Both the position numbers and the translations under genes were made by a program. From IMG/VR virus record IMGVR_UViG_2778261069_000012, positions 1-30,877 of that record: a stretch of 30,877 nucleotides of DNA; one strand, written 5' to 3'. The notes under the pieces were generated by a model, which was given only the letters and a program-made list of their open reading frames with translations, was not told where the DNA came from and made no database searches. Positions within the stretch are counted from its first letter, which is position 1. Every line of letters starts with the position of its first letter. Positions 10,822 to 27,829 of this stretch are shown piece by piece. The DNA is from a virus (lineage: Duplodnaviria; Heunggongvirae; Uroviricota; Caudoviricetes).

Positions 10822-13800
10822 ATGCAGTCGATCCAATTTAAACGAACAAATGTTTCTGGCAAAAAACCAACACCGGAACAATTACAGGTCGGTGAGGTAG
10901 CAATCAACCTTAAAGACCATGTTATTTTCACCAAAGACCGAGATCATGAAGTAGTTCAAATCTCTGTTTCTCCTGAAACTCACGCGGCACTAGAATCTAA
11001 AGTTGATGCTAACAAACAAGAATTGGATAGCACAATTGCAGTAAATGACCGCAATATTCACGCTAAAGTAGATGAAATTAAACAAACTACTGATGCAACC
11101 ATCGCAGCAAATCACGCAGAAATTAACAATAAAGTTGATGTAATTAAACGCGAAACCGACGCGACAATCGAGGCCAATAAAAATAAAGCTGCTTCCGATC
11201 TTGCTGGTGTTAAAGCTGAATTGTCGGATACCATCAACGCTAATAAAAATGCGGCTGCTGTAGCAACTCAGGAACTGGACACCCGCATCAATAAAAAAGT
11301 TGATGATATTAAATCCCGTACCGATGCAACCATCGTAAGCAATCACAAAGCAATCAATGACAAAGTTGATTTGATTAAGGCAGAAACTGACCGCACTATC
11401 GCAGCAAATCACGCCTATGCGGAAAATCAGTTAACTGACACCTACAATAACCTTACTGGTGTGATTGCAGCCAATAAGCAAGAGGCAGCGGATAACGTCG
11501 CAGCATTAACCCGTGATGTTGAAGCCAAAAATACAGCAATTCATAGCAAAGTTGACAATAACAAGTCTTACACTGATTCTGAATTGGCACGCTTAGAAAG
11601 CCGTATTGATGCAGCCGATGGATCAAGTGATGGTAAGTACATCAAAAAGCACGTAAACACTTGCACTGATGGCTATTTGCTGTCTAAGACCGCAAACCCT
11701 TTTGATGATCCGAGTGCTCTTAATCTTGATTACTTTGGTGCATTTCGCATGAATGACCTGGCGGGTCATATTGCAATGATCTTGCATGTTCCGCACCCAT
11801 CCGGCGTTAATCATGCTCGTGGTTTTGAGTTCACTTATGGGTCTAATCCGGTTCATACGGTAAGAACATACGGCTATGATGAATTGGGACATTTGGCATA
11901 TTCTCACCGCATGTATCATGAAGGTGATAAACCTACTCCGGCTGAAATTGGCGCATATTCGAAAGCAGAAATTGACCGCCTGTTCCAGAAGACGCTTAAT
12001 TTTGGGATCGAGGGCGGTTGGTTTAAACTCGGTAGTTTAACACTGCCACAGCAACACGGTCGCACGGCTAAGATTCGTTTAGTGGGTGGTAACGGTTATA
12101 ACGTCGGACAGAATGGACAAGCCAATATTATTGAACTGGTGATCCGTTGCGGCAACAATAGCCCGAAAGGTGTTGTATTCAATGCGTATTATACTATTTG
12201 GTATTATGAACAACATTTTTGTGCAATTCCTACCGATGGTGATAATTACGATCTTTACGCTTACTATGGTGCACATACAGGATTTGTTTTAGCAGAATAT
12301 CAAGTTTCTTCCGGTGGTGTTTCTTTAAACCTGTTGGATACTCCTGAATACCTGGGCGGTGAAAAACCTGTTGCAGATGAAATTTTTGATGCTCTTAACA
12401 TTTCATCGTTCAATAACTTTAGCAACCGTGGAACGTTAAATTTTGGTGGAAACCATCAAGGTCAATATGACATTGAGCATTTGAACGAACAACCGACAAA
12501 TGCTAAAAAGATGTTGCGTCGCTTCCGTAGTTCTGCTCCTGCCACTATCTGGCATGAGACAGTTGATGATAACGCATATCGTCTTGCTACTGGATACGAA
12601 GATACAAATCAGGAATTATTGCTGACAGCAACATCCGGGTTACATGTCAAGAAATTAACATTGGATGGCGGTGTTACTGGAAATTCTGGTATTGATATTC
12701 GTCGAGGACCAAACGAATCAAGTCATTTTAATTTCATGGATTATCGCACTGGACAAGATGTTCGTAATGGTTGGTTTGGTTTTGGTGATGGAACAACCAA
12801 AGATTTTATTTGGTGGAACGATAACGGTCAAAACTCTATAAACCTGATTGAAGATGGTGAATTGCATATTACTGGCGGTAAAGGCCAGAAAATTGTAATG
12901 AATAGCGAAGTTGCATTATCTGAAAATGCTCGTTTGGCTGTTAAAGGTGGCAATTATGGCTTAATTTTTAGAAATGATGGCGTTGGCTTCCATATTCTTA
13001 CCACAGATCTCGGTGATTCATTTGGACCGTGGAATACTCGTAGACCATTCAGCTATAATTTTGCGGACGGTGGATTATATTTAGGTGGTACTGAAACTGC
13101 TCGTTGTTTGCATCTGGGAATTGATGGTAGCACTCGTCTCGAAGACAACCTGTTCTTTAAAGCTGGTTCTCGTCAATCTATGGACTATATGGAACTCGTC
13201 CATTGGGGGGCAAGCAATACAGGTCGAAATAACGTTTTAAGTCTTCGTGACTCAAAAGGATTTTTCGCAGAATTTGAACGATTGGGTGATGATACCATTA
13301 AAAACACCTTCTTCGGGAAACTTAAAGTTAATCGTGGATCTGACGCAATCATCATGAATGCCGAAAGTGGCGATTCGTCTATATATTTGTTGGGTACTTG
13401 TGCTGATAATAACAACTGGTATATCGGTAAAGGTGGTGCTGATAATGGATTAGCGTTCTATAGCTATGCTACTAATGCTGCTATCAATATTACAAACGCG
13501 GGTGATATCGCGCTAAGTCCGAAAGGCGTCGAAATGACTCATGTCAATAACGTTCGGTTCTATGTTCATGGTGAACGTTGGACTGCTAGCCAATCTGGAG
13601 GCTGGGGCGATCAATGGGGATTAGAAGCGCCGATATTTGTCGATCATGGTTATGTTGGACCAGATAGCTATTATCCAATTATTAAAGGAAGAAGTTTAAT
13701 CACCAATCAAGGGTATACAACTGCCGTCGATTTTGGTATGCGTCGTGTTCCTCAAAATTGGGGGCAAGCTATTATTCGTGTTGGATCTGCGGAGGCATCG

Positions 13801-14232
13801 CCAGCGGCTGGTCATCCTCAAGCTGTATTCGAGTTCCATCATGATGGTACTTTCTATTCTCCTGGTAATGGTAACTTTAACGATGTTTATATTCGTTCCG
13901 ATGGTCGTCTGAAAATTAATGTTGAAGATTACGAAGAAAATGCGGTGGATAAGGTAAATAAACTCAAAGTTAAAACCTACGATAAAGTTAAATCTCTTAA
14001 TGACCGAGAAGTTATAGGTCATGAGATTGGTATTATCGCACAGGATTTACAAGAGGTATTACCGGAAGCTGTTAAAACCGCAAAAATTGGTGGTCTTGAT
14101 AACCCAGAAGAAATTTTAACAATTTCAAACTCCGCAGTGAACGCGCTTTTAATTAAAGCGGTCCAAGAAATGAGCGAAGAAAATAAACTTCTTCGTGAAC
14201 GTCTTGCTGCAATTGAAGCTAAATTAGGGTAA
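10822..14232 (+). CDS. tail fiber protein with C-terminal intramolecular chaperone (peptidase S74-like) domain
   Basis: 1136 aa; N-terminal KKPTPEQLQVGEVAINLKDHVIF fiber-type motif; four 22-aa KVDxIKxxTDATIxANH repeats; C-terminal GHEIGIIAQDLQEVLPEAV ... LLIKAVQEMSEENKLL typical of self-cleaving fiber chaperone domains. Confidence 0.85.
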   Translation: MQSIQFKRTNVSGKKPTPEQLQVGEVAINLKDHVIFTKDRDHEVVQISVSPETHAALESKVDANKQELDSTIAVNDRNIHAKVDEIKQTTDATIAANHAEINNKVDVIKRETDATIEANKNKAASDLAGVKAELSDTINANKNAAAVATQELDTRINKKVDDIKSRTDATIVSNHKAINDKVDLIKAETDRTIAANHAYAENQLTDTYNNLTGVIAANKQEAADNVAALTRDVEAKNTAIHSKVDNNKSYTDSELARLESRIDAADGSSDGKYIKKHVNTCTDGYLLSKTANPFDDPSALNLDYFGAFRMNDLAGHIAMILHVPHPSGVNHARGFEFTYGSNPVHTVRTYGYDELGHLAYSHRMYHEGDKPTPAEIGAYSKAEIDRLFQKTLNFGIEGGWFKLGSLTLPQQHGRTAKIRLVGGNGYNVGQNGQANIIELVIRCGNNSPKGVVFNAYYTIWYYEQHFCAIPTDGDNYDLYAYYGAHTGFVLAEYQVSSGGVSLNLLDTPEYLGGEKPVADEIFDALNISSFNNFSNRGTLNFGGNHQGQYDIEHLNEQPTNAKKMLRRFRSSAPATIWHETVDDNAYRLATGYEDTNQELLLTATSGLHVKKLTLDGGVTGNSGIDIRRGPNESSHFNFMDYRTGQDVRNGWFGFGDGTTKDFIWWNDNGQNSINLIEDGELHITGGKGQKIVMNSEVALSENARLAVKGGNYGLIFRNDGVGFHILTTDLGDSFGPWNTRRPFSYNFADGGLYLGGTETARCLHLGIDGSTRLEDNLFFKAGSRQSMDYMELVHWGASNTGRNNVLSLRDSKGFFAEFERLGDDTIKNTFFGKLKVNRGSDAIIMNAESGDSSIYLLGTCADNNNWYIGKGGADNGLAFYSYATNAAINITNAGDIALSPKGVEMTHVNNVRFYVHGERWTASQSGGWGDQWGLEAPIFVDHGYVGPDSYYPIIKGRSLITNQGYTTAVDFGMRRVPQNWGQAIIRVGSAEASPAAGHPQAVFEFHHDGTFYSPGNGNFNDVYIRSDGRLKINVEDYEENAVDKVNKLKVKTYDKVKSLNDREVIGHEIGIIAQDLQEVLPEAVKTAKIGGLDNPEEILTISNSAVNALLIKAVQEMSEENKLLRERLAAIEAKLG
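11065..11430 (+). repeat. in-frame tandem repeats (about 22-aa units) in the tail fiber shaft
   Basis: Four copies of KVD(E/V/D/L)IK(Q/R/S/A)xTD(A/R)TI(A/E/V)(A/S)N(H/K). Confidence 0.6.
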
Positions 14233-15703: not shown

Positions 15704-15712
15704 TATTATCTA

Positions 15713-15737
15713 GCCATCCTTCGGGGTGGCTTTTTTG
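15713..15737 (+). terminator. rho-independent terminator with UUCG tetraloop
   Basis: GCCATCC-TTCG-GGGTGGC followed by TTTTTT. Confidence 0.75.
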
Positions 15738-15785
15738 TTTCCAATTCTAAATAAACATATCTAATTAACTTAAGAGGAAACAATA

Positions 15786-19517: not shown

Positions 19518-20170
19518 TGGCAACTATTCAGGAATCATTCAGCAAACTATGCACTAATCTGGACTTCATCGAGGTCTACAACGACCAGACAGGTCAGAAC
19601 GTGTCTAGATTGACGCTACCGCAGCTTTTTTCCACTGGATCGATGTTTCACATTATCGAAGTGATTACCGCGTCAGGGGACGTTCTACGGCTTACAGATG
19701 GGTACTTCGATTTGGACTATAACGGATTTACATATCTCGCAACGGGTGATTTTCTTCAAATCTCATCAAATACCGAAGAGAAGGAGATCAACAACAACGG
19801 GATTAACGTAACCGTTTCTAACGTTCGCGAGGAATACATTACCCTGATTCGAAACAAGCAATTCGATAAATCAGATGTGAAAATCGAAATGGTGTTCCTG
19901 AACCCTAACACGGGCAAGGTTGAAACAACTTACCCTGTTTTCCGTGGGGTAGTCGATTCCATCGGGATTAACATCGAACATGAAGATGATGAGTGTAAAA
20001 ACGAATCAGAATTTCAGCTTAATAGTATCTGGGAAGTTCTAGATAAAAACGCTCGTAGTCATGCCTCCGATGGTATCCACCGTTCCTATGTTGGAAACGA
20101 GAACGATCTATTCTTCTCAAGGACCGGGCGCTGGCAATCGGAAAGCAAGTGGCATTCATCGAAGAAATAA
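19517..20170 (+). CDS. minor tail protein (lambda gpL-position)
   Basis: Start at ATG 19517 (SD GGAGA; TAATG overlap with the previous stop) rather than the upstream extension at 19463; 217 aa, close to lambda gpL size. Confidence 0.5.
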   Translation: MATIQESFSKLCTNLDFIEVYNDQTGQNVSRLTLPQLFSTGSMFHIIEVITASGDVLRLTDGYFDLDYNGFTYLATGDFLQISSNTEEKEINNNGINVTVSNVREEYITLIRNKQFDKSDVKIEMVFLNPNTGKVETTYPVFRGVVDSIGINIEHEDDECKNESEFQLNSIWEVLDKNARSHASDGIHRSYVGNENDLFFSRTGRWQSESKWHSSKK

Positions 20171-20216
20171 TCCCTTCTCCCTAAGCCTAGTAAATAACAG
20201 CATGGAGGTATTCAAC

Positions 20217-20636
20217 ATGCTAAAAACTAGGCTTATCACCGATTACATCAATTCTTTAATAGGTCAGGAGTTCGTTCAAGGCGAGAATGATTGCAATATA
20301 ATTGCATGTAAGATCATCGATATTCTCGCTGGTACTGACCTATATAATTCTCTTTATAAAAAATATTCAACTAAAGAAGAAGGCTTGAAAATCTGCAAAG
20401 AATTAAGCGGATACACAAATATCCTTCAACCAATTAAGAAACATTTCAAATTAGTCACTGATGATTTACAGGACGGCGACTTACTGGTCACAGCCCACAA
20501 ATTAGGAAACCGCAAATATTATTCCGTAGTTCCTCATTATTCCGGTTATGGCCTCGTTGAAGAAGATGGTATCTGGATGACCATTCCTGTTTCAGACATT
20601 GACTATGAACAAGTTTATAGATTCGGGGGTGAATAA
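20217..20636 (+). CDS. tail tip assembly protein, gpK-like NlpC/P60-type cysteine peptidase domain
   Basis: Start at ATG 20217 (SD GGAGG 8 nt upstream); ENDC catalytic-Cys motif near the N-terminus with His residues downstream; stop overlaps the next start (TAATG). Confidence 0.5.
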   Translation: MLKTRLITDYINSLIGQEFVQGENDCNIIACKIIDILAGTDLYNSLYKKYSTKEEGLKICKELSGYTNILQPIKKHFKLVTDDLQDGDLLVTAHKLGNRKYYSVVPHYSGYGLVEEDGIWMTIPVSDIDYEQVYRFGGE

Positions 20637-23600
20637 TGGGATTTGAAATATTAGTAGGCGCGGTTATTGCTGGTGCGTCTGCTGGGATGGCTGCTGCTGC
20701 AACGTTTTCTGTTATGACCGCAGTCGCTATCGGTATGGCTGCTGGTGCAATGACCTTGATCGCTTCCACTGTAGGCGCACCAAAAACACCGAAAGTACAA
20801 AGCCCAGATAATGCGGTGACACTAGGAACATCAAACGATCCTAAGACAGTATTACCCGTTCTTTTTGGTACTACCCGCACGGGTGCAATCTGCGTTTACA
20901 AGGCAATTTCACAGCGTGAAAATAACAAGCTGGTACAAATTTTTGCTATTGCCGAAGGTGAGATCGATCACTTTAAAGCACTGCACATCGATAATAAAAA
21001 CGTTCTCATTAGCCAGAATATGACAATTCGTGATGGCATTCTCGATAAAGGAAACATTAAAGACGAATACCGCAAAGTTTTAGAAGTCGAGTTTCGCACG
21101 GGTAAAAATCCTAACACTGCATTGGATTTAGCTAAACATCATTTGGGCGCTGATTGGGATGATCGGTATCAGGGTAACGGCATTGCGACCATGTGTATTG
21201 TTTTACGTCGTGATGACAAATCTTTGGCTGCTGGTGTTGATATTCTCCAGCCTAATAGCCAGGTAGCGGTCGATGTTATGGGCTTAAAGATTCGTAACCT
21301 TGAAACCAATGCTATTGAGGCTAGCACTAACGGCGTGGACCAGATTTTCCATTATCTGACAAATACAAAGTATGGTCTTAGTGTACCGATTGAAAATATT
21401 AACGTTGATTCATTCCTGAAAGTGCGTAAACAAGTACGCCAGATGGATTTACATTCCAACGGTGCATGTGATCCGAACGCCAGCTTTAAAGAGAACTTAA
21501 CTAGCCTTATGCAGACTTTCGGCGGGGTGATGTTCGAATCCTTTGGACGTATTACGCTGAAACTGGATGCTCCTGATATTGTTAAGCATACCTTCAATGA
21601 AGACAATATCATGATGGGTAAGGTATCACTGAAAACAGGTGGCACTAACGGTTATTTCAATACCATTAACGCGATGTATCAAGAACCATCAATCGACTAT
21701 TCAGAGCAAATGCTACGTTATCCGGCTGATGCTGAAAACGATGCTACTATTCGTCAAGATGGTCGAATTATCGCTAAAGACATTGAATATCGTTTTGTTA
21801 AGTCTAAAGCCCAGATTGATAAACTAGCGAGTGTAGAACGAAATAAATCTCGTATCACTCAGGTTATCAGCTTTATGACTACTGACGCATTCACTGCCGA
21901 AGTGTGGGATGTTATTAGCGTTACCTATGATGAATTAAAACTGAATAATTCACTTTGGCGCATTACTGCAATTGATCGTTCTATTGATTCTGGTATTGCT
22001 GGGATGATGACTATCACCGCTACAGAATATAATTCTCAGGTTTATACTGACCTGAACTATGCGGCTAACCCAGATAACCGACCAAGTGGTTTACCGGATT
22101 CAATGACAGTACAGAAGCCTACTAATTTCAGAATTAAGGCAACTGGTGAAACCATCCACGGTAAAAACGTAACTTTGACATGGGATGCACCGGAAGATTT
22201 CAACCGCTACGGTTTCCAGATTGATTATCGTGTGAGTGGATCACCTAACTGGATTAAGCTGGGACAGACTTCACAGCAAATTTTCAATATCAATGCACTG
22301 GCAAAAGATCGCTCCTACGATTACCGCGTTTGTGCTTTCGGTATTATTGCTCGTTCCGAATGGGTGGAACTGGTTAACCAGAATCCTACTGTTACCTATG
22401 AATTGCCGACTCCGGTTATTCGAATCAAAAATCAGGGTAGCACGCCTGGTACTTTCGAAGGCAATGATCTGATTATCGAATGGGAAAATCAGCAACAATT
22501 AGATGTGATGATCAACGGTGAAGCTAACAAGTTTAGTGACCTGTTTGAAGCATACATTATCAAGGTAACTAACAAGGCTGGTAAGTCTATTCAGTACCGT
22601 ACCCGCGATCCTGAATCATGGACTTATACGCTTGATATGAACCAGTTTAACGGCCTTTCCCGTGAATTGACGGTAGAAGTATCAGTCAAGGGCTATAACA
22701 ACTCAGAGAGCGCCCCAGCGCGTTTAGTGGCTATCAACCCACAACATAAGCCGATGAAAGGTTTTAGTGCGCGTGGTGGCTTTAATACTGCGTTTGTTAG
22801 CTGGGCGGATGACGTAGAACATGACTATGCAGGGTCAATCATCCAGTATGCAACCGATAATACTTTCTCCGATGCAAGGGCAGTGACTACCAATAGCGTT
22901 AGTCATACTTCCTTTGATTTGGCTGACGGTGATTATTATATCCGTGGTGCTCACTATGATATTTTCGGTATGGATGATGCTGTTTGGTCTGAACCGTATT
23001 TCATGCAAATGAAATCTACCATTAGCTGGGACGATCAGGACAAAGAAGCACTGGAAGACCTGATTGGTTTACAAGATCGCTTAGATGAAACCATCGCGGA
23101 TGCTATTGCTCAAGCTGGCGCTAATGCCGATGCTAAGATTGATGCAATGCATAAACAGATTACTACCGAGACAGGGCAGACGGTCCAAGCCTCAGCCGAT
23201 ACTCTCAAGAGTCTGATTGCTACCAGTGAGCAAGCCAGCGCAACTAAGATTGATCAGGTTAAAGCTGAACTGAAAGGCGATATCACCAAAGAAGTTAGCG
23301 CATCCGCTACTACCCTGAAACAAGCAATTGCTACCAGTGAGGCAGCAAGCGCAAGTAAGATTGATCAAGTTCGGGTAGAAATGGATGGCAAGATTGCTGG
23401 TGTGAATCAGGAAGCAGATGTAAAAATCGATGCTTTGAAGGGAACCATTAACAGCAAATATAATCTGGCAGTTAATGCAGATGGTCGCGTGGCTGGTATT
23501 CATATGAGCGCAACCAATGATCCGGCAGAACCGACAAGAATCATCTTTACGGCTGATAAAATCGCGGTAGCTCCACAAGACGGATCAGAAGTTTGTCCGT

Positions 23601-24412
23601 TTGGTATCGAAGGTAACAAGGTTTATCTCGATAATGCCATGATTCGTAATGGGGCGATCGGAACAGCCCAGATCAACGATGCTAGCATCACCACGGCTAA
23701 AATCGGCACAGCCCAGATTAACGGTGCTCACATCCAGCACGCCCAGATCGGAACAGGTCATATTATTGATGGCTCTATCGATAATGCTAAAATTGGTAAC
23801 TATATCCAGTCTTATAACTGGAATGGTAACGATGGATGGTATATCGGCAAAGATGGCACTTGTCATTTTAGACACGCTAATATTCGTGGTCATTTGGTGG
23901 CTGATTCCGGCGAAATGAACAACGTAACGATTAATTCAAGTTGCCGCATTTTGGGTATGCTTGATGCTAATCAGGTGCGTGGTGACTTCGTGAAAGCTAT
24001 TGGTCGTCGATTCCCACATTGGGACGAAAACCCATCATTGGGCTATCCCGGTTATCCGCAAGGTACAATCACTGTTCGAATTGAAGATGATCACCCGTTT
24101 GATCGTCAGATTATCGTTCCGGCTATTAGCTTTGGTGGTCTTAATGCGCGTGAAGGCTCGAATAACAATACTTACTATGATAACTGTCGCTTGATTGTTC
24201 GCAAGAACGGTGCTGAATTATATAACCGTGCATATGGCAGACAGACTGGATTGTATAGTGCTGTTATTGATATGCCAGCCGGACACGGACCAGTTACGCT
24301 AACTTTTGAAGTAAGTTCAAGCGCAATCAACAACTGGACTCCCAGCACATGGATCAGCGATCTTTCTGTAATTGTTACTAAGAAAGCCGCTACGGGTATT
24401 TCTGTTTCTTAA
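20636..24412 (+). CDS. tail tip / host-specificity protein, gpJ-like, with an N-terminal gpI-C-like hydrophobic domain fused in frame
   Basis: 1258 aa; N-terminal about 95 aa (Gly/Ala-rich hydrophobic stretch, PKTPKVQSPDN, VLPVLFGTTRTGA) resembles the C-terminal half of lambda gpI; C-terminal about 150 aa (DDHPFDRQIIVP ... VIDMPAGHGPVTLTF ... ATGISVS) resembles the lambda gpJ C-terminus from memory. Confidence 0.88.
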   Translation: MGFEILVGAVIAGASAGMAAAATFSVMTAVAIGMAAGAMTLIASTVGAPKTPKVQSPDNAVTLGTSNDPKTVLPVLFGTTRTGAICVYKAISQRENNKLVQIFAIAEGEIDHFKALHIDNKNVLISQNMTIRDGILDKGNIKDEYRKVLEVEFRTGKNPNTALDLAKHHLGADWDDRYQGNGIATMCIVLRRDDKSLAAGVDILQPNSQVAVDVMGLKIRNLETNAIEASTNGVDQIFHYLTNTKYGLSVPIENINVDSFLKVRKQVRQMDLHSNGACDPNASFKENLTSLMQTFGGVMFESFGRITLKLDAPDIVKHTFNEDNIMMGKVSLKTGGTNGYFNTINAMYQEPSIDYSEQMLRYPADAENDATIRQDGRIIAKDIEYRFVKSKAQIDKLASVERNKSRITQVISFMTTDAFTAEVWDVISVTYDELKLNNSLWRITAIDRSIDSGIAGMMTITATEYNSQVYTDLNYAANPDNRPSGLPDSMTVQKPTNFRIKATGETIHGKNVTLTWDAPEDFNRYGFQIDYRVSGSPNWIKLGQTSQQIFNINALAKDRSYDYRVCAFGIIARSEWVELVNQNPTVTYELPTPVIRIKNQGSTPGTFEGNDLIIEWENQQQLDVMINGEANKFSDLFEAYIIKVTNKAGKSIQYRTRDPESWTYTLDMNQFNGLSRELTVEVSVKGYNNSESAPARLVAINPQHKPMKGFSARGGFNTAFVSWADDVEHDYAGSIIQYATDNTFSDARAVTTNSVSHTSFDLADGDYYIRGAHYDIFGMDDAVWSEPYFMQMKSTISWDDQDKEALEDLIGLQDRLDETIADAIAQAGANADAKIDAMHKQITTETGQTVQASADTLKSLIATSEQASATKIDQVKAELKGDITKEVSASATTLKQAIATSEAASASKIDQVRVEMDGKIAGVNQEADVKIDALKGTINSKYNLAVNADGRVAGIHMSATNDPAEPTRIIFTADKIAVAPQDGSEVCPFGIEGNKVYLDNAMIRNGAIGTAQINDASITTAKIGTAQINGAHIQHAQIGTGHIIDGSIDNAKIGNYIQSYNWNGNDGWYIGKDGTCHFRHANIRGHLVADSGEMNNVTINSSCRILGMLDANQVRGDFVKAIGRRFPHWDENPSLGYPGYPQGTITVRIEDDHPFDRQIIVPAISFGGLNAREGSNNNTYYDNCRLIVRKNGAELYNRAYGRQTGLYSAVIDMPAGHGPVTLTFEVSSSAINNWTPSTWISDLSVIVTKKAATGISVS
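23189..23410 (+). repeat. in-frame tandem duplication (about 111 nt / 37 aa) within the gpJ-like gene
   Basis: SADTLKSLIATSEQASATKIDQVKAELKG versus SATTLKQAIATSEAASASKIDQVRVEMDG; the nearby IGTAQIN motif also occurs twice. Confidence 0.6.
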
Positions 24413-24430
24413 AATTTAATTCTAATAATT

Positions 24431-24471
24431 AATCCCGCTTAATTCTTTTGAGTTAAGCGGGATTATTTTTA
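24431..24471 (+). terminator. rho-independent terminator after the gpJ-like gene
   Basis: AATCCCGCTTAA / TTAAGCGGGATT 12-bp stem, 10-nt loop, then ATTTTTAT. Confidence 0.8.
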
Positions 24472-24517
24472 TCTAAATAATTTTGCCATTAAACCATATA
24501 AAAATATCGGGGGCGTA

Positions 24518-24796
24518 ATGACTGAAATTATATATGGCGGTATCGGTGTTATCGCCTTAATTTGCGGTGGATTATGGAGACTTCACCGAAATCAATTAGC
24601 AACTGAAAATAGATTGTCGAAATTGGAATCCAGCGACGCATTGTTAAACCAGAAGTTTGAGACGATGCAGAATAACCATACTCAGATTGCTGAACGTGTT
24701 TACCAAATGGAACAAACACTACACGGTATAGAGAAGAAAGTGGTTGCGATGGACGCTAAGTTTGACCAAGTTCTCGACATACTCAAACAAAAATAA
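24518..24796 (+). CDS. membrane protein with N-terminal transmembrane segment and coiled-coil tail (holin-like or spanin-like candidate)
   Basis: 92 aa; hydrophobic IIYGGIGVIALICGGLW followed by a heptad-like region; position upstream of the endolysin. Confidence 0.5.
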   Translation: MTEIIYGGIGVIALICGGLWRLHRNQLATENRLSKLESSDALLNQKFETMQNNHTQIAERVYQMEQTLHGIEKKVVAMDAKFDQVLDILKQK

Positions 24797-24815
24797 TAAT
24801 AAAAGGGGTGAATAT

Positions 24816-24986
24816 ATGAAGAATAAACTTAAGAAATATTTTGGTTATCTCTTGATTGTCGCCCTCACTTATAACGTAGCAATTAGACCTCTGCTTACGT
24901 CCTTTGGGCTTGAACTCCCGGCTATGACCGTGGATGAACAATTGCTAAGGACACTGGCGGGGGTCTTTTCGTTATTAGGGGGCTAA
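24816..24986 (+). CDS. small hydrophobic protein (holin candidate)
   Basis: Start at ATG 24816 (SD AAAAGGGG) rather than the upstream extension at 24744; 56 aa with two hydrophobic stretches. Confidence 0.4.
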   Translation: MKNKLKKYFGYLLIVALTYNVAIRPLLTSFGLELPAMTVDEQLLRTLAGVFSLLGG

Positions 24987-24987
24987 C

Positions 24988-25671
24988 ATGGCAACCAGTA
25001 CCAATAAACGAAACGCTCTAAGGACTAAGAAAGCGTTACGGCAATGGTCTGAAAAGGCAACCGATACATTCGAAAGGGCACTAGGGGAAGGGGCGATCTT
25101 TGCTTCCAGAGCACTCCAGAAGAAGATTAACAAGAATGTTGATAGACCTACTCGCTGGACTCAGCAAGCTGTAGGTAATACCAACTACAAGAACCGATCA
25201 GGGACGAGACACCAAATCTTCATCAAGGGCGCAAGGGATAAGGATAAGAAGATCGGCAGTCAGGACGACTATCTGAAACACTATTTCGATGGGGGCAAAA
25301 TCAATAAGCTAGTTCCAATCGCCAACGGTAAGGTCTTAGACGCCCACGGGAACATTAAGGCCATCAAAGGCGGTAAGATGATGCGTAACCTCGAAAACGG
25401 CAACTTCATCAAGGTAGAGAACAAGGAAGGGACTTTTATCATGAAGAAGTACAAGCCTAAGAAATCCCGAACCAAACGCGCTAGGAATGGATCGGCGGTG
25501 GCAAAACGTCGCTTAGAGAAACGCATACAGAAACAGAGCAAGCGAATTGTTGCCGTTAAATCGGATAAAATTTCTACTCGTTATTCGACGCTAGGATCGT
25601 GGGAAAGCAACGAAGCAATGATGCTTGAAAACATCAATAAGCACATTAAATCGCGCATGAAATACGTTTAA
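24988..25671 (+). CDS. hypothetical highly basic (K/R-rich) protein
   Basis: 227 aa; SD AGGGGG; no motif recognised. Confidence 0.55.
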   Translation: MATSTNKRNALRTKKALRQWSEKATDTFERALGEGAIFASRALQKKINKNVDRPTRWTQQAVGNTNYKNRSGTRHQIFIKGARDKDKKIGSQDDYLKHYFDGGKINKLVPIANGKVLDAHGNIKAIKGGKMMRNLENGNFIKVENKEGTFIMKKYKPKKSRTKRARNGSAVAKRRLEKRIQKQSKRIVAVKSDKISTRYSTLGSWESNEAMMLENINKHIKSRMKYV

Positions 25672-25681
25672 TCCATAAATA

Positions 25682-25703
25682 CCCTCATAGAAACTTATGG
25701 GGG
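25682..25703 (+). promoter_or_regulatory. stem-loop that sequesters the SD of the downstream gene
   Basis: CCCTCATA-GAAACT-TATGGGGG; the GGGGG is the only SD for the ATG at 25710. Confidence 0.4.
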
Positions 25704-25709
25704 TATAAC

Positions 25710-26057
25710 ATGGCTAAAAATATTTTCACTGAATTTCCTACTTATCCGGTCGATCAGCTTTCCGGTATTTTTATTAATGGCATTAGCCCAGAATCTATGA
25801 CACATGATTTTGAGGCGAAGAGAGTTAAACATAAACAATATAAAGAATGTATCCGCGATCATGAAAAAGGGACCGTGTTTTGTGTCGCTACATTGGCTAA
25901 ACGTCCTAAATATCGTTTTCGTGTCGGACAAGAAGTTGATGTGGTTAATCCTTATAGCTTTAACTGTCTGGGCGATGCACGCGCGGTGTGTGTAGGCACT
26001 GCTCCTTATTATATCAAGGGTATGCGCTTTATTGGTTATATCTTCGAAATGATCTAA
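25710..26057 (+). CDS. hypothetical protein (115 aa)
   Basis: ORF with SD GGGGG; no motif recognised. Confidence 0.5.
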   Translation: MAKNIFTEFPTYPVDQLSGIFINGISPESMTHDFEAKRVKHKQYKECIRDHEKGTVFCVATLAKRPKYRFRVGQEVDVVNPYSFNCLGDARAVCVGTAPYYIKGMRFIGYIFEMI

Positions 26058-26066
26058 GGGGGTAAT

Positions 26067-26420
26067 ATGTTAAGTAAGCATTTTTCTCGCAAGGAATTTA
26101 AATGTAAATGCGGAAAATGTGATTATGATACAATCGACGCTGAATTACTGGTGATTCTTGAGGATGTACGAGAGCACTTCGGTAAACCAGTGATTATTAA
26201 CAGTGGCAACCGTTGCCCGACTCATAACAAGAATGTAGGCGGGGCAGCCAATAGCTATCACGTTCGAGGCCGCGCGGCTGACATTGTTATCAAGGGTGTC
26301 TCGCCTGATATTGTTCATGCTTATCTTGATGGGAAATATCCTACTCAATACGGCTTAGGAAAATATAAAACCTTTACGCATATTGATTCCAGATCAAAAA
26401 AATCACGGTGGAATGGATAA
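26067..26420 (+). CDS. endolysin candidate, peptidase M15-type zinc peptidase
   Basis: 117 aa; SGNRCPTHNKNVGGAANSYHVRGRAADI ... THID matches the H/D/H zinc-binding signature of small M15 cell-wall peptidases; SD AAGGGGGTAA; no signal peptide. Confidence 0.78.
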   Translation: MLSKHFSRKEFKCKCGKCDYDTIDAELLVILEDVREHFGKPVIINSGNRCPTHNKNVGGAANSYHVRGRAADIVIKGVSPDIVHAYLDGKYPTQYGLGKYKTFTHIDSRSKKSRWNG

Positions 26421-26784
26421 AACAAAAGCGCCTCTGGTGGGCGCTTTTTTGTTAGAATATGCTGGCGACGTTAGCTATATTTCTGACCATTTTTTCATTA
26501 TAGACAAATATACCGCAGATGATAAAGTGGTATTCGACGAAGTTGATCCGTCTCTGGTTGAAGCAATGAAAGAACCTGAGATCGTCATTGAAGAAACAAA
26601 AGAAGAATCTCCAGAAGTTGAACCAGTGGTCGAAGAAGTTAAGTCAGTTGTTGAAGAAGCACTGGAAGTTAAAGTGGAATCTCCGGTAGCCAACATTTTC
26701 TCTGACGAAGCAGAGCATCGTTCTCCTGCACATGACACTGATTCATTTTGCGATCTTACTGGTTTCCAAAACTACAATAATTAA
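26413..26784 (+). CDS. hypothetical acidic protein; start uncertain
   Basis: 123-codon open frame, E/V-rich; the only in-frame ATG near the 5' end overlaps the endolysin stop, and the terminator hairpin lies inside the putative 5' end. Confidence 0.3.
   Translation: MDKTKAPLVGAFLLEYAGDVSYISDHFFIIDKYTADDKVVFDEVDPSLVEAMKEPEIVIEETKEESPEVEPVVEEVKSVVEEALEVKVESPVANIFSDEAEHRSPAHDTDSFCDLTGFQNYNN
26427..26451 (+). terminator. rho-independent terminator after the endolysin gene
   Basis: AGCGCC-TCTGGTG-GGCGCT followed by TTTTTT. Confidence 0.8.
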
Positions 26785-26793
26785 TTCTTATAA

Positions 26794-26832
26794 ATAGTAG
26801 TGAATATTATTTTATTGAGGATTCACTACTAT
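26794..26832 (+). promoter_or_regulatory. 12-bp stem enclosing the SD and start codon of the downstream nuclease gene
   Basis: ATAGTAGTGAAT (26794-26805) pairs perfectly with ATTCACTACTAT (26821-26832); loop contains GAGG; the 3' arm includes the AT of the ATG at 26831. Confidence 0.55.
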
Positions 26833-27829
26833 GAATACTACTTTAGCAAAGGATATCGAATTTACCGCAAAAAGCAAACGTGCGACCCCTCCGGTCGAAT
26901 ATGAAACCAGAATCATTAAAGTTTGTCAAGTGCATGGATGGTTATACAGTGGTTTTGTGCTTCCTGTAAAGAAACCATTCCAGAACACCAAAGTTTGCAT
27001 AGAAGTTAACGGAAAGGTTAAAACGCCATGTATTAGTCATGTTCTAACTGGTCAGTTTACTGGCAAAGATAGAGTATCACCGCCTAAGAAGAAGTTTAGA
27101 TTTACCGAAGAAGAACACTTAGAAAACGCTCGCAAGTTCTACAAGCCGATAGGGTGGGATGTGTTAGGTCTGGCTGAACCTTATCAGGGTGTTGACACTA
27201 AACTAATTCTTCGTTGTAAGTGCCACGGAAAGATTCACAAGAAAGGTGATTTACACAATAACCGCAGACAAGGCGGGTTAACATGCCCTTTGGTTAGGGG
27301 TGTACTTAAATCAATTCAGAATGGTAGAAAACAGGTTATCAGAAACAAGTTTGCACAGCGCCCTATGCACTTTTATCTAATTCGTGTTGGTGAGAAGTTT
27401 TTCAAATATGGAATTACCACTCGCAAAGATCCGATGCAACGGGTAAGAGAACACCAGAAGCACACCAGCGAGAAAATCACCTTTGAATGCTCACATTTGT
27501 TTAACATTGGATGGAAAGCTGGTGATTTAGAAATGGGGATTAAAAAGAATATTCAGGGCAAGAAAATCCCACGTAAGGTAATGAATAGCGGATTCACAGA
27601 AACGCTACCGATTAGCAAGCTGAAAGATGTTAAATCATTCATCAATGAATACATCCACACCAACCCATCTAAGCCAATGTATTTTGATGATACCAACGCA
27701 ATCAATCTGAACAACTACATTAGTGATGAAGACATAGAACGAGATTTATCGCAGTGGATGAATGCACCGTTAGCTGATTTAACACCGGAAGACTTAGAAC
27801 TCGATTTAAGCCCTTTAGAGGCTCTTTAA
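26831..27829 (+). CDS. GIY-YIG / T5orf172-like nuclease-domain protein with N-terminal Cys/His-rich region (homing-endonuclease-like)
   Basis: 332 aa; FYLIRVGEKFFKYGITTRKDPMQRVREH matches the GIY-(9-11 aa)-YIG-R-H pattern with conserved downstream FECS and SGFTE; N-terminal CxxH / CxCH clusters. Confidence 0.5.
   Translation: MNTTLAKDIEFTAKSKRATPPVEYETRIIKVCQVHGWLYSGFVLPVKKPFQNTKVCIEVNGKVKTPCISHVLTGQFTGKDRVSPPKKKFRFTEEEHLENARKFYKPIGWDVLGLAEPYQGVDTKLILRCKCHGKIHKKGDLHNNRRQGGLTCPLVRGVLKSIQNGRKQVIRNKFAQRPMHFYLIRVGEKFFKYGITTRKDPMQRVREHQKHTSEKITFECSHLFNIGWKAGDLEMGIKKNIQGKKIPRKVMNSGFTETLPISKLKDVKSFINEYIHTNPSKPMYFDDTNAINLNNYISDEDIERDLSQWMNAPLADLTPEDLELDLSPLEAL

What the first reader, a model, noticed from the sequence alone, without database searches (positions are those of the whole stretch)
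24518..26420. Atypical lysis-like cluster: two membrane proteins, two unknown proteins, and a signal-less M15 peptidase
The endolysin candidate lacks a signal peptide, so it needs a holin. The upstream 92-aa (one TM plus coiled coil) and 56-aa (two hydrophobic segments) proteins are candidates, but no lipoprotein-type o-spanin (no lipobox Cys) is visible. A 227-aa extremely basic protein and a 115-aa unknown separate the membrane proteins from the endolysin, which is unusual for a compact lysis cassette.
Basis: partly seen in the sequence, partly recalled or inferred. Interest (0 to 1): 0.35.

Follow-up and report, generated by a model that had tools for sequence, protein, structure and literature searches.

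The report
Spanin-less prophage lysis operon, four orphans
A conserved five-gene operon at the end of the late genes of an undescribed E. coli prophage encodes a cell-wall-cutting enzyme, two small membrane proteins and two proteins of unknown role but no recognisable outer-membrane-breaking gene, so it is probably an unusual cell-bursting module whose extra parts still need experiments.

Summary
Five tightly packed + strand genes lie at 24518-26420: A 92 aa, B 56 aa, C 227 aa, D 115 aa, E 117 aa. All have strong ribosome-binding sites, are under purifying selection, and sit between two terminator hairpins.

The window is about 31 kb of a roughly 35 kb prophage inserted in ycdX. It occurs in 55 of 5426 complete E. 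coli genomes. Its head genes are distantly Cronusvirus-like.

- **E:** a signal-less Peptidase_M15_3 enzyme, 60-64% identical to the endolysins of SP6-like podophages. It is the only muralytic gene I found in the prophage.
- **A:** one glycine-rich membrane helix plus a coiled coil.
- **B:** one membrane helix plus an amphipathic tail.
- **C:** net charge +37, evolving far faster than its neighbours. It is a remote relative of phrog_1924 ("minor tail protein"), whose homologue is not among the 12 proteins of the solved R4C virion.
- **D:** an orphan.

The order A-B-C-D-endolysin is kept in Salmonella, Providencia and Buttiauxella prophages, even where the endolysin is replaced by a Peptidase_M15_4 enzyme. 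No lipoprotein spanin exists in any of them.

Most likely this is a spanin-less lysis module with A and/or B as holin. The roles of C and D are unproven. Interest is moderate.

The parts
24430..24465 (+). Intrinsic terminator hairpin (16-bp stem followed by a T run) after the 1258-aa tail-tip gene. It marks the upstream boundary of the five-gene unit.
   Evidence: terminator scan; sequence read
24518..24796 (+). Gene A, 92 aa. It has an N-terminal Gly-rich membrane helix (res 4-20, IIYGGIGVIALICGGLW) followed by RLHRNQ and about 70 residues of coiled coil. It is a holin or holin-partner candidate. By the positive-inside rule the coiled coil is more likely cytoplasmic.
   Evidence: hydropathy, heptads; weak coiled-coil Pfam hits only; homologues only in E. 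coli, Salmonella and Providencia prophages; dN/dS 0.08-0.18
24816..24986 (+). Gene B, 56 aa. It has a cationic N-terminus (MKNKLKK), one membrane helix (about res 8-24, conserved YN motif) and a C-terminal amphipathic segment. It is a holin or antiholin candidate. Its stop lies 1 nt from the start of C.
   Evidence: the 1-nt B/C junction is kept in six family members and the two genes overlap in the seventh, L013; dN/dS 0.09-0.28
24988..25671 (+). Gene C, 227 aa, pI 10.7, net charge +37. Its N-terminal ~115 residues (motifs DRPTxFT, QxxYL, YGNI) are remotely homologous to phrog_1924 / R4C gp49 / RcCronus gp44. It evolves 2-4 times faster than its neighbours. Its role is unknown.
   Evidence: AlphaFold model unusable (pLDDT 43)
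25710..26057 (+). Gene D, 115 aa, with conserved GISPES and RVGQEVD motifs and a beta-rich C-terminal half. It is an orphan family that always sits immediately upstream of the endolysin, and overlaps it by 4 nt in some relatives.
26067..26420 (+). Gene E, 117 aa. It is a cytoplasmic Zn peptidase of family M15 (Peptidase_M15_3) with H65-x6-D72 and H105, and is the phage endolysin.
26424..26448 (.). GC-rich hairpin (AAAAGCGCC-N7-GGCGCTTTT) flanked by T runs on both strands. It is the terminator at the downstream boundary of the unit.
   Evidence: scored on the - strand; the + strand tail TTTTTTGTT was read directly

Best explanation
The cluster is the lysis module of a temperate siphophage (a prophage in ycdX), expressed as the last part of the late transcript.

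E is a soluble, cytoplasmic zinc peptidase that cuts peptidoglycan peptide links. Because it has no export signal, it can reach the wall only after a holin opens the inner membrane.

The holin function is most likely supplied by A and/or B, the only two membrane proteins in the unit. A has a glycine-rich helix with a cytoplasmic coiled coil, predicted N-out/C-in. B is predicted N-in with a short periplasmic amphipathic tail. They could act as a two-component holin or as a holin/antiholin pair.

The phage has no lipoprotein spanin. The outer membrane is therefore either broken by something else in the operon (C and D are the only candidates) or not actively broken at all.

What is shown and what is inferred:
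- Shown: gene reality, conservation, the enzyme family of E, absence of an export signal, absence of a lipobox, and linkage of A-D to two different endolysin families.
- Inferred: the holin role of A/B, and any lysis role for C and D.
For: - **E as endolysin.** Peptidase_M15_3 at 97 bits; phrog_894 endolysin at 1.7e-45; 60-64% identity over the full length to endolysins of SP6-like, Acadevirus and Zindervirus phages that sit in lysis cassettes. The HxxxxxxD zinc motif aligns to the solved carboxypeptidase 1LBU. It has no hydrophobic N-terminus.
- **One transcription unit.** Terminators lie on both sides. Intergenic gaps are 19, 1, 38 and 9 nt, and D/E overlap in relatives.
- **Conserved order.** A-B-C-D-endolysin directly after the tail-tip gene is kept in E. 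coli, Salmonella, Providencia and Buttiauxella prophages. In the most distant members the M15_3 enzyme is replaced by an unrelated-family M15_4 peptidase, while A'-B'-C'-D' stay. This ties the four genes to 'an endolysin' rather than to one particular gene.
- **No alternative found.** No other muralytic or lysis-annotated gene is present in the prophage, and there are no defence-system matches.
- **No spanin.** No lipobox was found anywhere, with a working positive control.
- **Precedents.** About 15% of phages of Gram-negative hosts lack spanins, and extra small membrane proteins can be essential for lysis (bioRxiv 10.1101/515445; 10.1101/2024.01.23.576932).
Against: - A and B match no holin family and have no homologue in 50,697 phage records.
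- Topology is inferred only from hydropathy and charge.
- No sigma-70 promoter was found in front of A.
- C is related to genes that in Cronusvirus phages lie next to terS and are labelled 'minor tail protein'. C may therefore have nothing to do with lysis.
- Small polytopic or hydrophobic ORFs beside terS, outside the window, look at least as holin-like as A or B. One is 94 aa with about 3 membrane helices and a charged C-terminus.
- Structure prediction gave no usable fold for C or D.
Confidence: 0.55

Rival explanations
1. The cluster is a mosaic. Only E (plus a holin) is lytic. C, and perhaps D, are morphogenetic or virion-associated proteins, such as a tail-completion-like assembly factor, that happen to be encoded between the membrane proteins and the endolysin.
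For: - 10 of 13 C-family members hit phrog_1924 'minor tail protein' (best 2.4e-33), and one hits phrog_27 tail completion/Neck1 weakly.
- hhalign of the C profile against R4C gp49 gives 97% probability.
- In the related phage R4C, a true structural gene (the tail terminator, gene 018) is also encoded downstream of the tail-tip gene (PMC10276861).
- The main structural operon here has no recognisable tail-completion gene.
- The weak Foldseek hits of D are mostly small beta domains of tail proteins.
Against: - R4C gp49 is not among the 12 proteins assigned in the R4C virion structure (PMC10276861). I found no experimental basis for the 'minor tail' label.
- hhalign of C against HK97 gp10 is negative, and D against the R4C terminator is negative.
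- C is translationally coupled to a membrane protein gene, and D to the endolysin gene.
- The Foldseek hits are all non-significant, from a low-confidence model.
Confidence: 0.25
2. A and B are not holins. They are superinfection-exclusion or other lysogen-benefit membrane proteins (like HK97 gp15). The real holin is one of the small hydrophobic ORFs next to terS at the other end of the prophage.
For: - In strain ETEC1739 a 94-aa ORF lies directly after terS. It has about 3 membrane helices and a KQTK C-terminus, a class-I-holin-like shape.
- A relative integrated in hicB carries two other small hydrophobic ORFs in the same slot.
- A and B have no known holin signature.
Against: - By megablast the terS-adjacent 94-aa ORF is present in only part of the E. 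coli copies, and is replaced by unrelated ORFs in others. A and B are conserved in every family member I examined.
- A and B have no promoter of their own and are packed with the endolysin.
- The 94-aa ORF matches no PHROG or NCBIfam family.
Confidence: 0.15
3. C is a nucleic-acid-binding late protein, either a packaging or cos-site accessory factor or a late regulator, rather than a lysis or virion protein.
For: - C has net charge +37 with K/R-rich tracts.
- Homologues in RcCronus (gp44) and R4C (gp49) are the last gene before cos/terS. In a metagenomic relative the C-like gene lies two genes upstream of terS, next to an Endonuclease-VII/HNH-like gene. That is the position taken by packaging-accessory HNH proteins in HK97-like phages (my own knowledge).
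Against: - No DNA-binding domain was detected.
- In the enterobacterial family C is about 6-7 kb from terS in the circular map.
- In the same distant relatives an endolysin is also nearby, so position does not discriminate between the two roles.
Confidence: 0.12

Closest known systems
Lysis cassette of SP6-like Autographiviridae (e.g. UAB_Phi78, K1-5, Proteus phage Pm5460)
   Same: The endolysin is of the same family and size (about 115 aa, Peptidase_M15_3, no signal sequence), is 60-64% identical, and lies in a late operon with small membrane proteins.
   Different: Those phages place a small 48-aa membrane protein and an overlapped i-spanin/o-spanin pair downstream of the endolysin (the o-spanin was recovered). 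Here the membrane proteins lie upstream, two unrelated proteins intervene, and there is no spanin.
Spanin-less lysis with a disruptin (coliphage phiKT gp27-gp28-gp29; bioRxiv 10.1101/515445)
   Same: It is an E. coli phage with no lipobox anywhere, and with a small unknown protein inside the lysis cassette. Both B and gp28 are 56 aa and begin with K-x-KKY-x-G.
   Different: gp28 is cationic (+7) and amphipathic, without a true membrane helix (GRAVY -0.06). B is hydrophobic (GRAVY 0.63, net +3). Similarity beyond the first 9 residues is not significant. The phiKT holin has 4 membrane helices and its endolysin is a T4-type lysozyme.
phrog_1924 proteins of Cronusvirus phages (RcCronus gp44, vB_DshS-R4C gp49), annotated 'minor tail protein'
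   Same: The N-terminal ~115 residues of C share the motifs DRPTxFT, QxxYL and YGN (hhalign 97%, E 5.7e-11). The host phages also share a related fused major capsid protein.
   Different: The Cronusvirus genes are the last gene before cos/terS and are not flanked by A, B or D homologues. C carries a long K/R-rich insertion. No function has been demonstrated for either, and gp49 is absent from the R4C virion model (PMC10276861).
Multi-factor lysis systems with extra small membrane proteins (Shewanella LambdaSo Lcc6, bioRxiv 10.1101/2024.01.23.576932; B. subtilis PBSX XhlA/XhlB, from my own knowledge)
   Same: Lysis there needs a second small bitopic membrane protein besides the holin. XhlA combines one membrane helix with a coiled coil, as A does.
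   Different: There is no sequence relationship. XhlA has its helix at the C-terminus. LambdaSo uses a pinholin, a SAR endolysin and a nested spanin, whereas here the endolysin is cytoplasmic and there is no spanin.

Membership tests
Peptidase family M15 (Pfam PF08291 Peptidase_M15_3) phage endolysin | Profile match above the curated threshold | tested here: met
   97.0 bits against a gathering cutoff of 23.2, covering the full profile 1-108; phrog_894 endolysin at 1.7e-45
Peptidase family M15 (Pfam PF08291 Peptidase_M15_3) phage endolysin | Zinc ligands H-x6-D and a distal H | tested here: met
   H65-x6-D72 aligns with SRHMYGHAAD of the Streptomyces Zn D-Ala-D-Ala carboxypeptidase 1LBU. H105 in FTHID was read from the sequence and is conserved in all relatives.
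Peptidase family M15 (Pfam PF08291 Peptidase_M15_3) phage endolysin | Muralytic activity on host peptidoglycan | not testable with these tools
   Needs purified protein on E. coli sacculi or chloroform-permeabilised cells.
Canonical (holin-dependent, cytoplasmic) endolysin | No signal peptide or SAR domain | tested here: met
   The highest 19-residue Kyte-Doolittle mean is 0.72, and the N-terminus MLSKHFSRKEFKCK is hydrophilic. No dedicated signal-peptide predictor was available.
Holin | Small protein with at least one membrane helix and a charged C-terminus, encoded with the endolysin | tested here: met
   A has a helix at res 4-20 and a charged C-terminal domain ending KQK. B has a helix at about res 8-24. 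Both are in the same unit as E.
Holin | Membership of a described holin family | tested here: not met
   No significant Pfam, PHROG or NCBIfam match. The best is phrog_12015 (unknown function, 4.2e-5) for A and phrog_2024 (unknown function, 0.0054) for B. No tblastn hits in the phage records.
Holin | Timed lethal hole formation that releases the endolysin | not testable with these tools
   Requires induction experiments.
Two-component spanin (Rz/Rz1 type) | Outer-membrane lipoprotein subunit with a lipobox, embedded in, overlapping or adjacent to the i-spanin gene | tested here: not met
   An all-frame, all-start-codon scan found none in the window, in the rest of the prophage, or in the relative loci I held. 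The same scan found the UAB_Phi78 o-spanin. Cys16 of A lies in the helix with Ile at -1 and is not conserved.
Two-component spanin (Rz/Rz1 type) | i-spanin with an N-terminal membrane helix and a periplasmic coiled coil | tested here: inconclusive
   A has the helix plus coiled-coil shape, and a weak phrog_739 Rz-like hit (E 0.036). Its charge distribution (MTE before the helix, RLHR after) predicts a cytoplasmic coiled coil. Topology was not measured.
Unimolecular spanin (T1 gp11 type) | N-terminal lipobox plus a C-terminal membrane helix in one protein | tested here: not met
   No lipobox ORF found.
Disruptin (phiKT gp28) | Small, strongly cationic amphipathic peptide without a membrane helix, and sequence relationship to gp28 | tested here: not met
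   B has net charge +3, GRAVY 0.63 and a membrane helix; gp28 has +7 and GRAVY -0.06. hhalign probability is 8%. The B-family HMM does not retrieve gp28. phmmer with gp28 gives E 1.2 to one B homologue among 1685 ORFs. C is cationic, but at 227 aa it is only moderately amphipathic.
phrog_1924 ('minor tail protein') | Profile match | tested here: met
   The window protein scores E 3.7e-4 over 154 residues. 10 of 13 family members match, the best at 2.4e-33. hhalign against R4C gp49 gives 97%. Homology covers the N-terminal half only.
phrog_1924 ('minor tail protein') | Being a virion tail component | tested here: inconclusive
   R4C gp49 is not among the 12 structural proteins modelled in the R4C virion (PMC10276861) and has no PDB entry. 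Low-copy or disordered components could be missed, and no proteomics data were available.
HK97 gp10 family (tail completion / Neck1) | Detectable homology | tested here: not met
   hhalign of the C profile against HK97 gp10 gives 0.1% probability. The only support is a weak phrog_27 hit (E 0.0055) by one distant family member.

The most novel reading that the evidence does not exclude
The four orphan genes A-D form a previously undescribed lysis-control and envelope-disruption set. It travels with whatever endolysin the phage carries and replaces the spanin. The fast-evolving polycationic protein C (with or without D) would act on the outer membrane, or on endolysin release, by a mechanism unrelated to lipoprotein spanins or the phiKT disruptin.
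Probability: 0.15. Interest if true: 0.65.

Novelty: new variant of a known kind. Interest (0 to 1): 0.4.

Why it matters
How phages without spanins get through the outer membrane is an open question for roughly one phage in seven. Only one alternative, the phiKT disruptin, has been characterised.

This prophage lives in E. coli, is present in about 1% of complete genomes, and has a well-understood type of endolysin. Its compact five-gene unit could be cloned as it stands into the standard lambda lysis-complementation system.

If A-D include a new holin type or a spanin substitute, that would add a new class of lysis protein. If they do not, the result still corrects the 'minor tail protein' label that databases propagate for phrog_1924.

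Tried and rejected
- **AlphaFold2 of C** (7-sequence alignment): pLDDT 43, unusable.
- **AlphaFold2 of D** (16 sequences): pLDDT 59. Foldseek against PDB and BFVD gave nothing below E 0.03, only generic small beta domains.
- **C homologue searches:** a profile search of 1.84 billion representatives found only 12 clusters. A profile search of PDB sequences found nothing.
- **Pairwise profile tests:** C against HK97 gp10 was negative. D against the R4C tail terminator was negative. The gene following the C-like gene in the metagenomic contig L015 is not a D homologue.
- **B against the phiKT disruptin gp28:** an eye-catching shared length and N-terminal KxKKYxG. One pairwise shuffle test gave p 0.0004 (Providencia homologue), but the HMM, phmmer and hhalign tests were not significant, so homology is rejected as unproven. 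gp28 has no divergent homologues from which to build a profile.
- **B against the 99-aa membrane protein of L015:** suggestive only (hhalign E 0.003, probability 10%).
- **Defence-system idea:** no PADLOC match for A-E.
- **Phage-record searches:** tblastn of A, B and C against 50,697 phage records found nothing.
- **Wider contig scans:** the IMG/VR scan with D found only near-identical copies of the same prophage. The scan with the C alignment failed for lack of conserved stretches.
- **Promoter in front of A:** none by consensus scan.
- **R4C proteomics:** no supplements were available for the proteomics paper.
Full report
**What is there**

The window holds five consecutive + strand ORFs at exactly the reported coordinates: A 24518-24796 (92 aa), B 24816-24986 (56 aa), C 24988-25671 (227 aa), D 25710-26057 (115 aa) and E 26067-26420 (117 aa). 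Each is preceded by a G-rich Shine-Dalgarno sequence, and the gaps between them are 19, 1, 38 and 9 nt.

A 16-bp-stem terminator follows the 1258-aa tail-tip gene at 24430-24465. A second GC-rich hairpin with T runs on both strands follows E at 24424-26448's position, 26424-26448. The five genes therefore form a bounded unit. I found no sigma-70-like promoter in front of A. In the most distant relative the cluster follows the tail genes with only a 48-nt gap before A'. I therefore take the cluster to be the tail end of the late transcript; this is inference.

Against a 58-81% identical relative, dN/dS is 0.06-0.28 for all five genes, so all five are real protein-coding genes.

**Where it comes from**

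The window is about 31 kb of a roughly 35 kb prophage inserted in ycdX of E. coli. The right-hand junction lies just beyond a large serine recombinase. The 2.5-kb region around the cluster matches 55 of 5426 complete E. coli genomes, all on chromosomes, and 50 of them over at least 80% of its length.

No sequenced phage resembles the prophage at the DNA level. Its fused 667-aa capsid protein is distantly related to those of Cronusvirus phages (RcCronus, vB_DshS-R4C) and of phiHAP-1 and VP882. Its tail genes run distal tail protein, hub-like protein, DUF6950, tail tip. This resembles the distal-tail, hub, peptidase, megatron order of R4C (PMC10276861).

**The endolysin**

- E matches Pfam Peptidase_M15_3 over the whole profile (97 bits against a cutoff of 23.2) and PHROG 894 'endolysin' (1.7e-45).
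- It is 60-64% identical over its full length to the endolysins of SP6-like podophages.
- In UAB_Phi78 that enzyme sits next to a small membrane protein and an overlapped i-spanin/o-spanin pair.
- The H65-x6-D72 motif aligns with the zinc site of the solved carboxypeptidase 1LBU, and H105 is conserved.
- E has no hydrophobic N-terminus, so it should stay in the cytoplasm until a holin acts.
- Neither the RefSeq annotation of the whole prophage nor my PHROG scans of the other ORFs shows any other muralytic or lysis gene.

**The membrane proteins**

A has one glycine-rich hydrophobic helix (residues 4-20). The remainder has a strong heptad pattern, with 75% L/I/V/M/F at a/d positions against 29% overall. 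The flanking charges (MTE before the helix, RLHR after it) suggest that the coiled coil is cytoplasmic. That argues against an i-spanin, whose coiled coil must be periplasmic. This is only a rule-of-thumb inference.

B has a cationic N-terminus, one helix (about residues 8-24) and a short amphipathic C-terminus.

Neither protein matches any holin family or any protein in 50,697 phage records. Homologues of A occur only in E. coli, Salmonella and Providencia.

**The two unknowns**

C has pI 10.7 and net charge +37. Among 5.8 billion clustered proteins it has six homologous clusters. A profile search of 1.84 billion representatives found twelve.

Ten of thirteen family members hit phrog_1924 'minor tail protein', the best at 2.4e-33. 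The family profile aligns to R4C gp49 with 97% probability over the N-terminal ~110 columns. In RcCronus and R4C this gene is the last one before cos/terS. In a metagenomic relative it lies between a membrane protein and terS, with a lysozyme gene nearby.

The published R4C virion structure assigns 12 structural proteins, and gp49 is not one of them (PMC10276861). I found no experimental basis for the 'minor tail' label.

C diverges much faster than its neighbours. In Salmonella relatives A, B, D and E are 64-89% identical to the window proteins, while C is 30-35% identical.

D is an orphan restricted to this prophage family. Its AlphaFold model is of low confidence, and Foldseek found nothing significant.

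**Comparative genomics: the strongest evidence**

The order tail tip, A, B, C, D, endolysin is kept in prophages of E. coli, Salmonella and Providencia.

It is also kept in a more distant branch, a Buttiauxella prophage and loci L013/L014, whose host I did not identify. There A', B', C' and D' are only 27-32% identical to the window proteins (D' confirmed by hhalign at 99.4%). In that branch the endolysin is a Peptidase_M15_4 enzyme instead of M15_3.

The B/C junction (1 nt, or overlapping) is kept in all seven family members compared, and D overlaps the endolysin gene in several. So the four orphan genes stay linked to an endolysin whichever family that endolysin belongs to. This is what one expects of a lysis module. 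The variable region of these prophages begins only after the endolysin.

**No spanin**

I scanned every start codon in every frame for a lipobox preceded by a charged and hydrophobic leader. The scan found no credible candidate in the window, in the remaining 4.5 kb of the prophage, or in the parts of six relatives that I held. It did recover the known o-spanin of UAB_Phi78.

The family therefore belongs to the roughly 15% of phages of Gram-negative hosts without a spanin (bioRxiv 10.1101/515445).

I tested the obvious idea that B is a disruptin like phiKT gp28, since both are 56 aa and both begin K-x-KKY-x-G. B is hydrophobic while gp28 is cationic and amphipathic. HMM, phmmer and hhalign comparisons were not significant. 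I reject homology as unproven.

**Interpretation**

The best-supported reading (confidence about 0.55) is a spanin-less lysis module. E is the endolysin (confidence about 0.85 on its own). A and/or B provide holin function, and C and D are conserved accessory genes of unknown role.

The rivals are:
- C/D are morphogenetic proteins interleaved with lysis genes.
- The true holin is one of the small hydrophobic ORFs beside terS outside the window. These are holin-shaped but not conserved across the family.
- C is a DNA-binding packaging or regulatory protein.

The most novel reading not excluded is that A-D form a new lysis set that replaces the spanin (probability about 0.15).

**Verdict**

The system is a new variant of a known kind, a lysis cassette, in an undescribed but fairly common E. 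coli/Salmonella prophage family. It is moderately interesting because it is directly testable in standard E. coli lysis assays.

Noticed in passing
window 26510-26767 (inside ORF 26383-26784): A 258-nt stretch is 97-98% identical to the middle of the 'inh' (inhibitor of prohead protease) gene of T4-like Krischvirus phages such as GEC-3S and Ec_Makalu, and is read in the same frame. In relatives the same slot holds uvsY and uvsW, which are the neighbours of inh in Krischvirus, but at only about 70-87% nt identity. This looks like repeated DNA exchange between T4-like phages and this prophage family.
   Followed up: partly
window 26831-27829: A 332-aa ORF lies directly after the inh fragment. 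It matches phrog_681 'endonuclease' (4e-20) and is 24-35% identical to putative homing endonucleases of T5 and T4-like phages. A homing endonuclease could explain the imported T4-like DNA beside it.
   Followed up: partly
window 26412-26783, as annotated in RefSeq relatives (L001 22013-22384): The annotated 123-aa 'hypothetical protein' starts inside the stop region of the endolysin gene and runs straight through the terminator hairpin at 26424-26448. Its 5' part is probably not translated, and the ORF may be a remnant built around the inh fragment.
   Followed up: no
window 15707-15740: A 34-nt stretch just after the tail-tube gene is 97% identical to the terminator that follows hoc in Krischvirus GEC-3S. 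This is a second small piece shared with T4-like phages.
   Followed up: no
L002 8634-8918 (minus strand; outside the window, next to terS) and L019 2839-3245: The slot directly after the small terminase gene holds a 94-aa protein with about 3 membrane helices in strain ETEC1739. In a relative integrated in hicB it holds two unrelated, unannotated small hydrophobic ORFs of 59 and 57 aa. This is a variable pocket of small membrane proteins that could be holins or exclusion genes.
   Followed up: partly
whole window plus L002: The roughly 35 kb prophage uses a large serine recombinase and splits ycdX. It shows no recognisable replication module. Its small terminase gene is separated from the large terminase gene by about 6 kb of regulator-like and unknown genes, including a Rha/Ant-like protein.
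   Followed up: no
window 10822-14232: A 1136-aa protein resembling the distal subunit of the T4 long tail fibre (phrog_1699, 1.7e-125) is encoded between the head-completion genes and the tail-tube gene. It follows a 277-aa protein whose N-terminal half resembles a tail-tube protein. This is an unusual place for a fibre gene in a siphophage.
   Followed up: no
window 20061-20636 and 20636-24412: A DUF6950 protein occupies the position between the hub-like protein and the tail-tip protein. In R4C that position is held by the tail-associated cell-wall peptidase. The tail therefore seems to lack its own wall-degrading enzyme. The tail-tip protein begins with a long hydrophobic Ala/Gly-rich segment.
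   Followed up: no
L007 14174-14494 (Providencia relative): This is the only credible lipoprotein found in any relative: 106 aa, with leader LVITGC and a good ribosome-binding site. It lies near the integrase next to an OmpW-like gene, far from the lysis cluster, and is absent from the E. coli prophage. It is more likely a lysogen-conversion or exclusion gene than a spanin.
   Followed up: no
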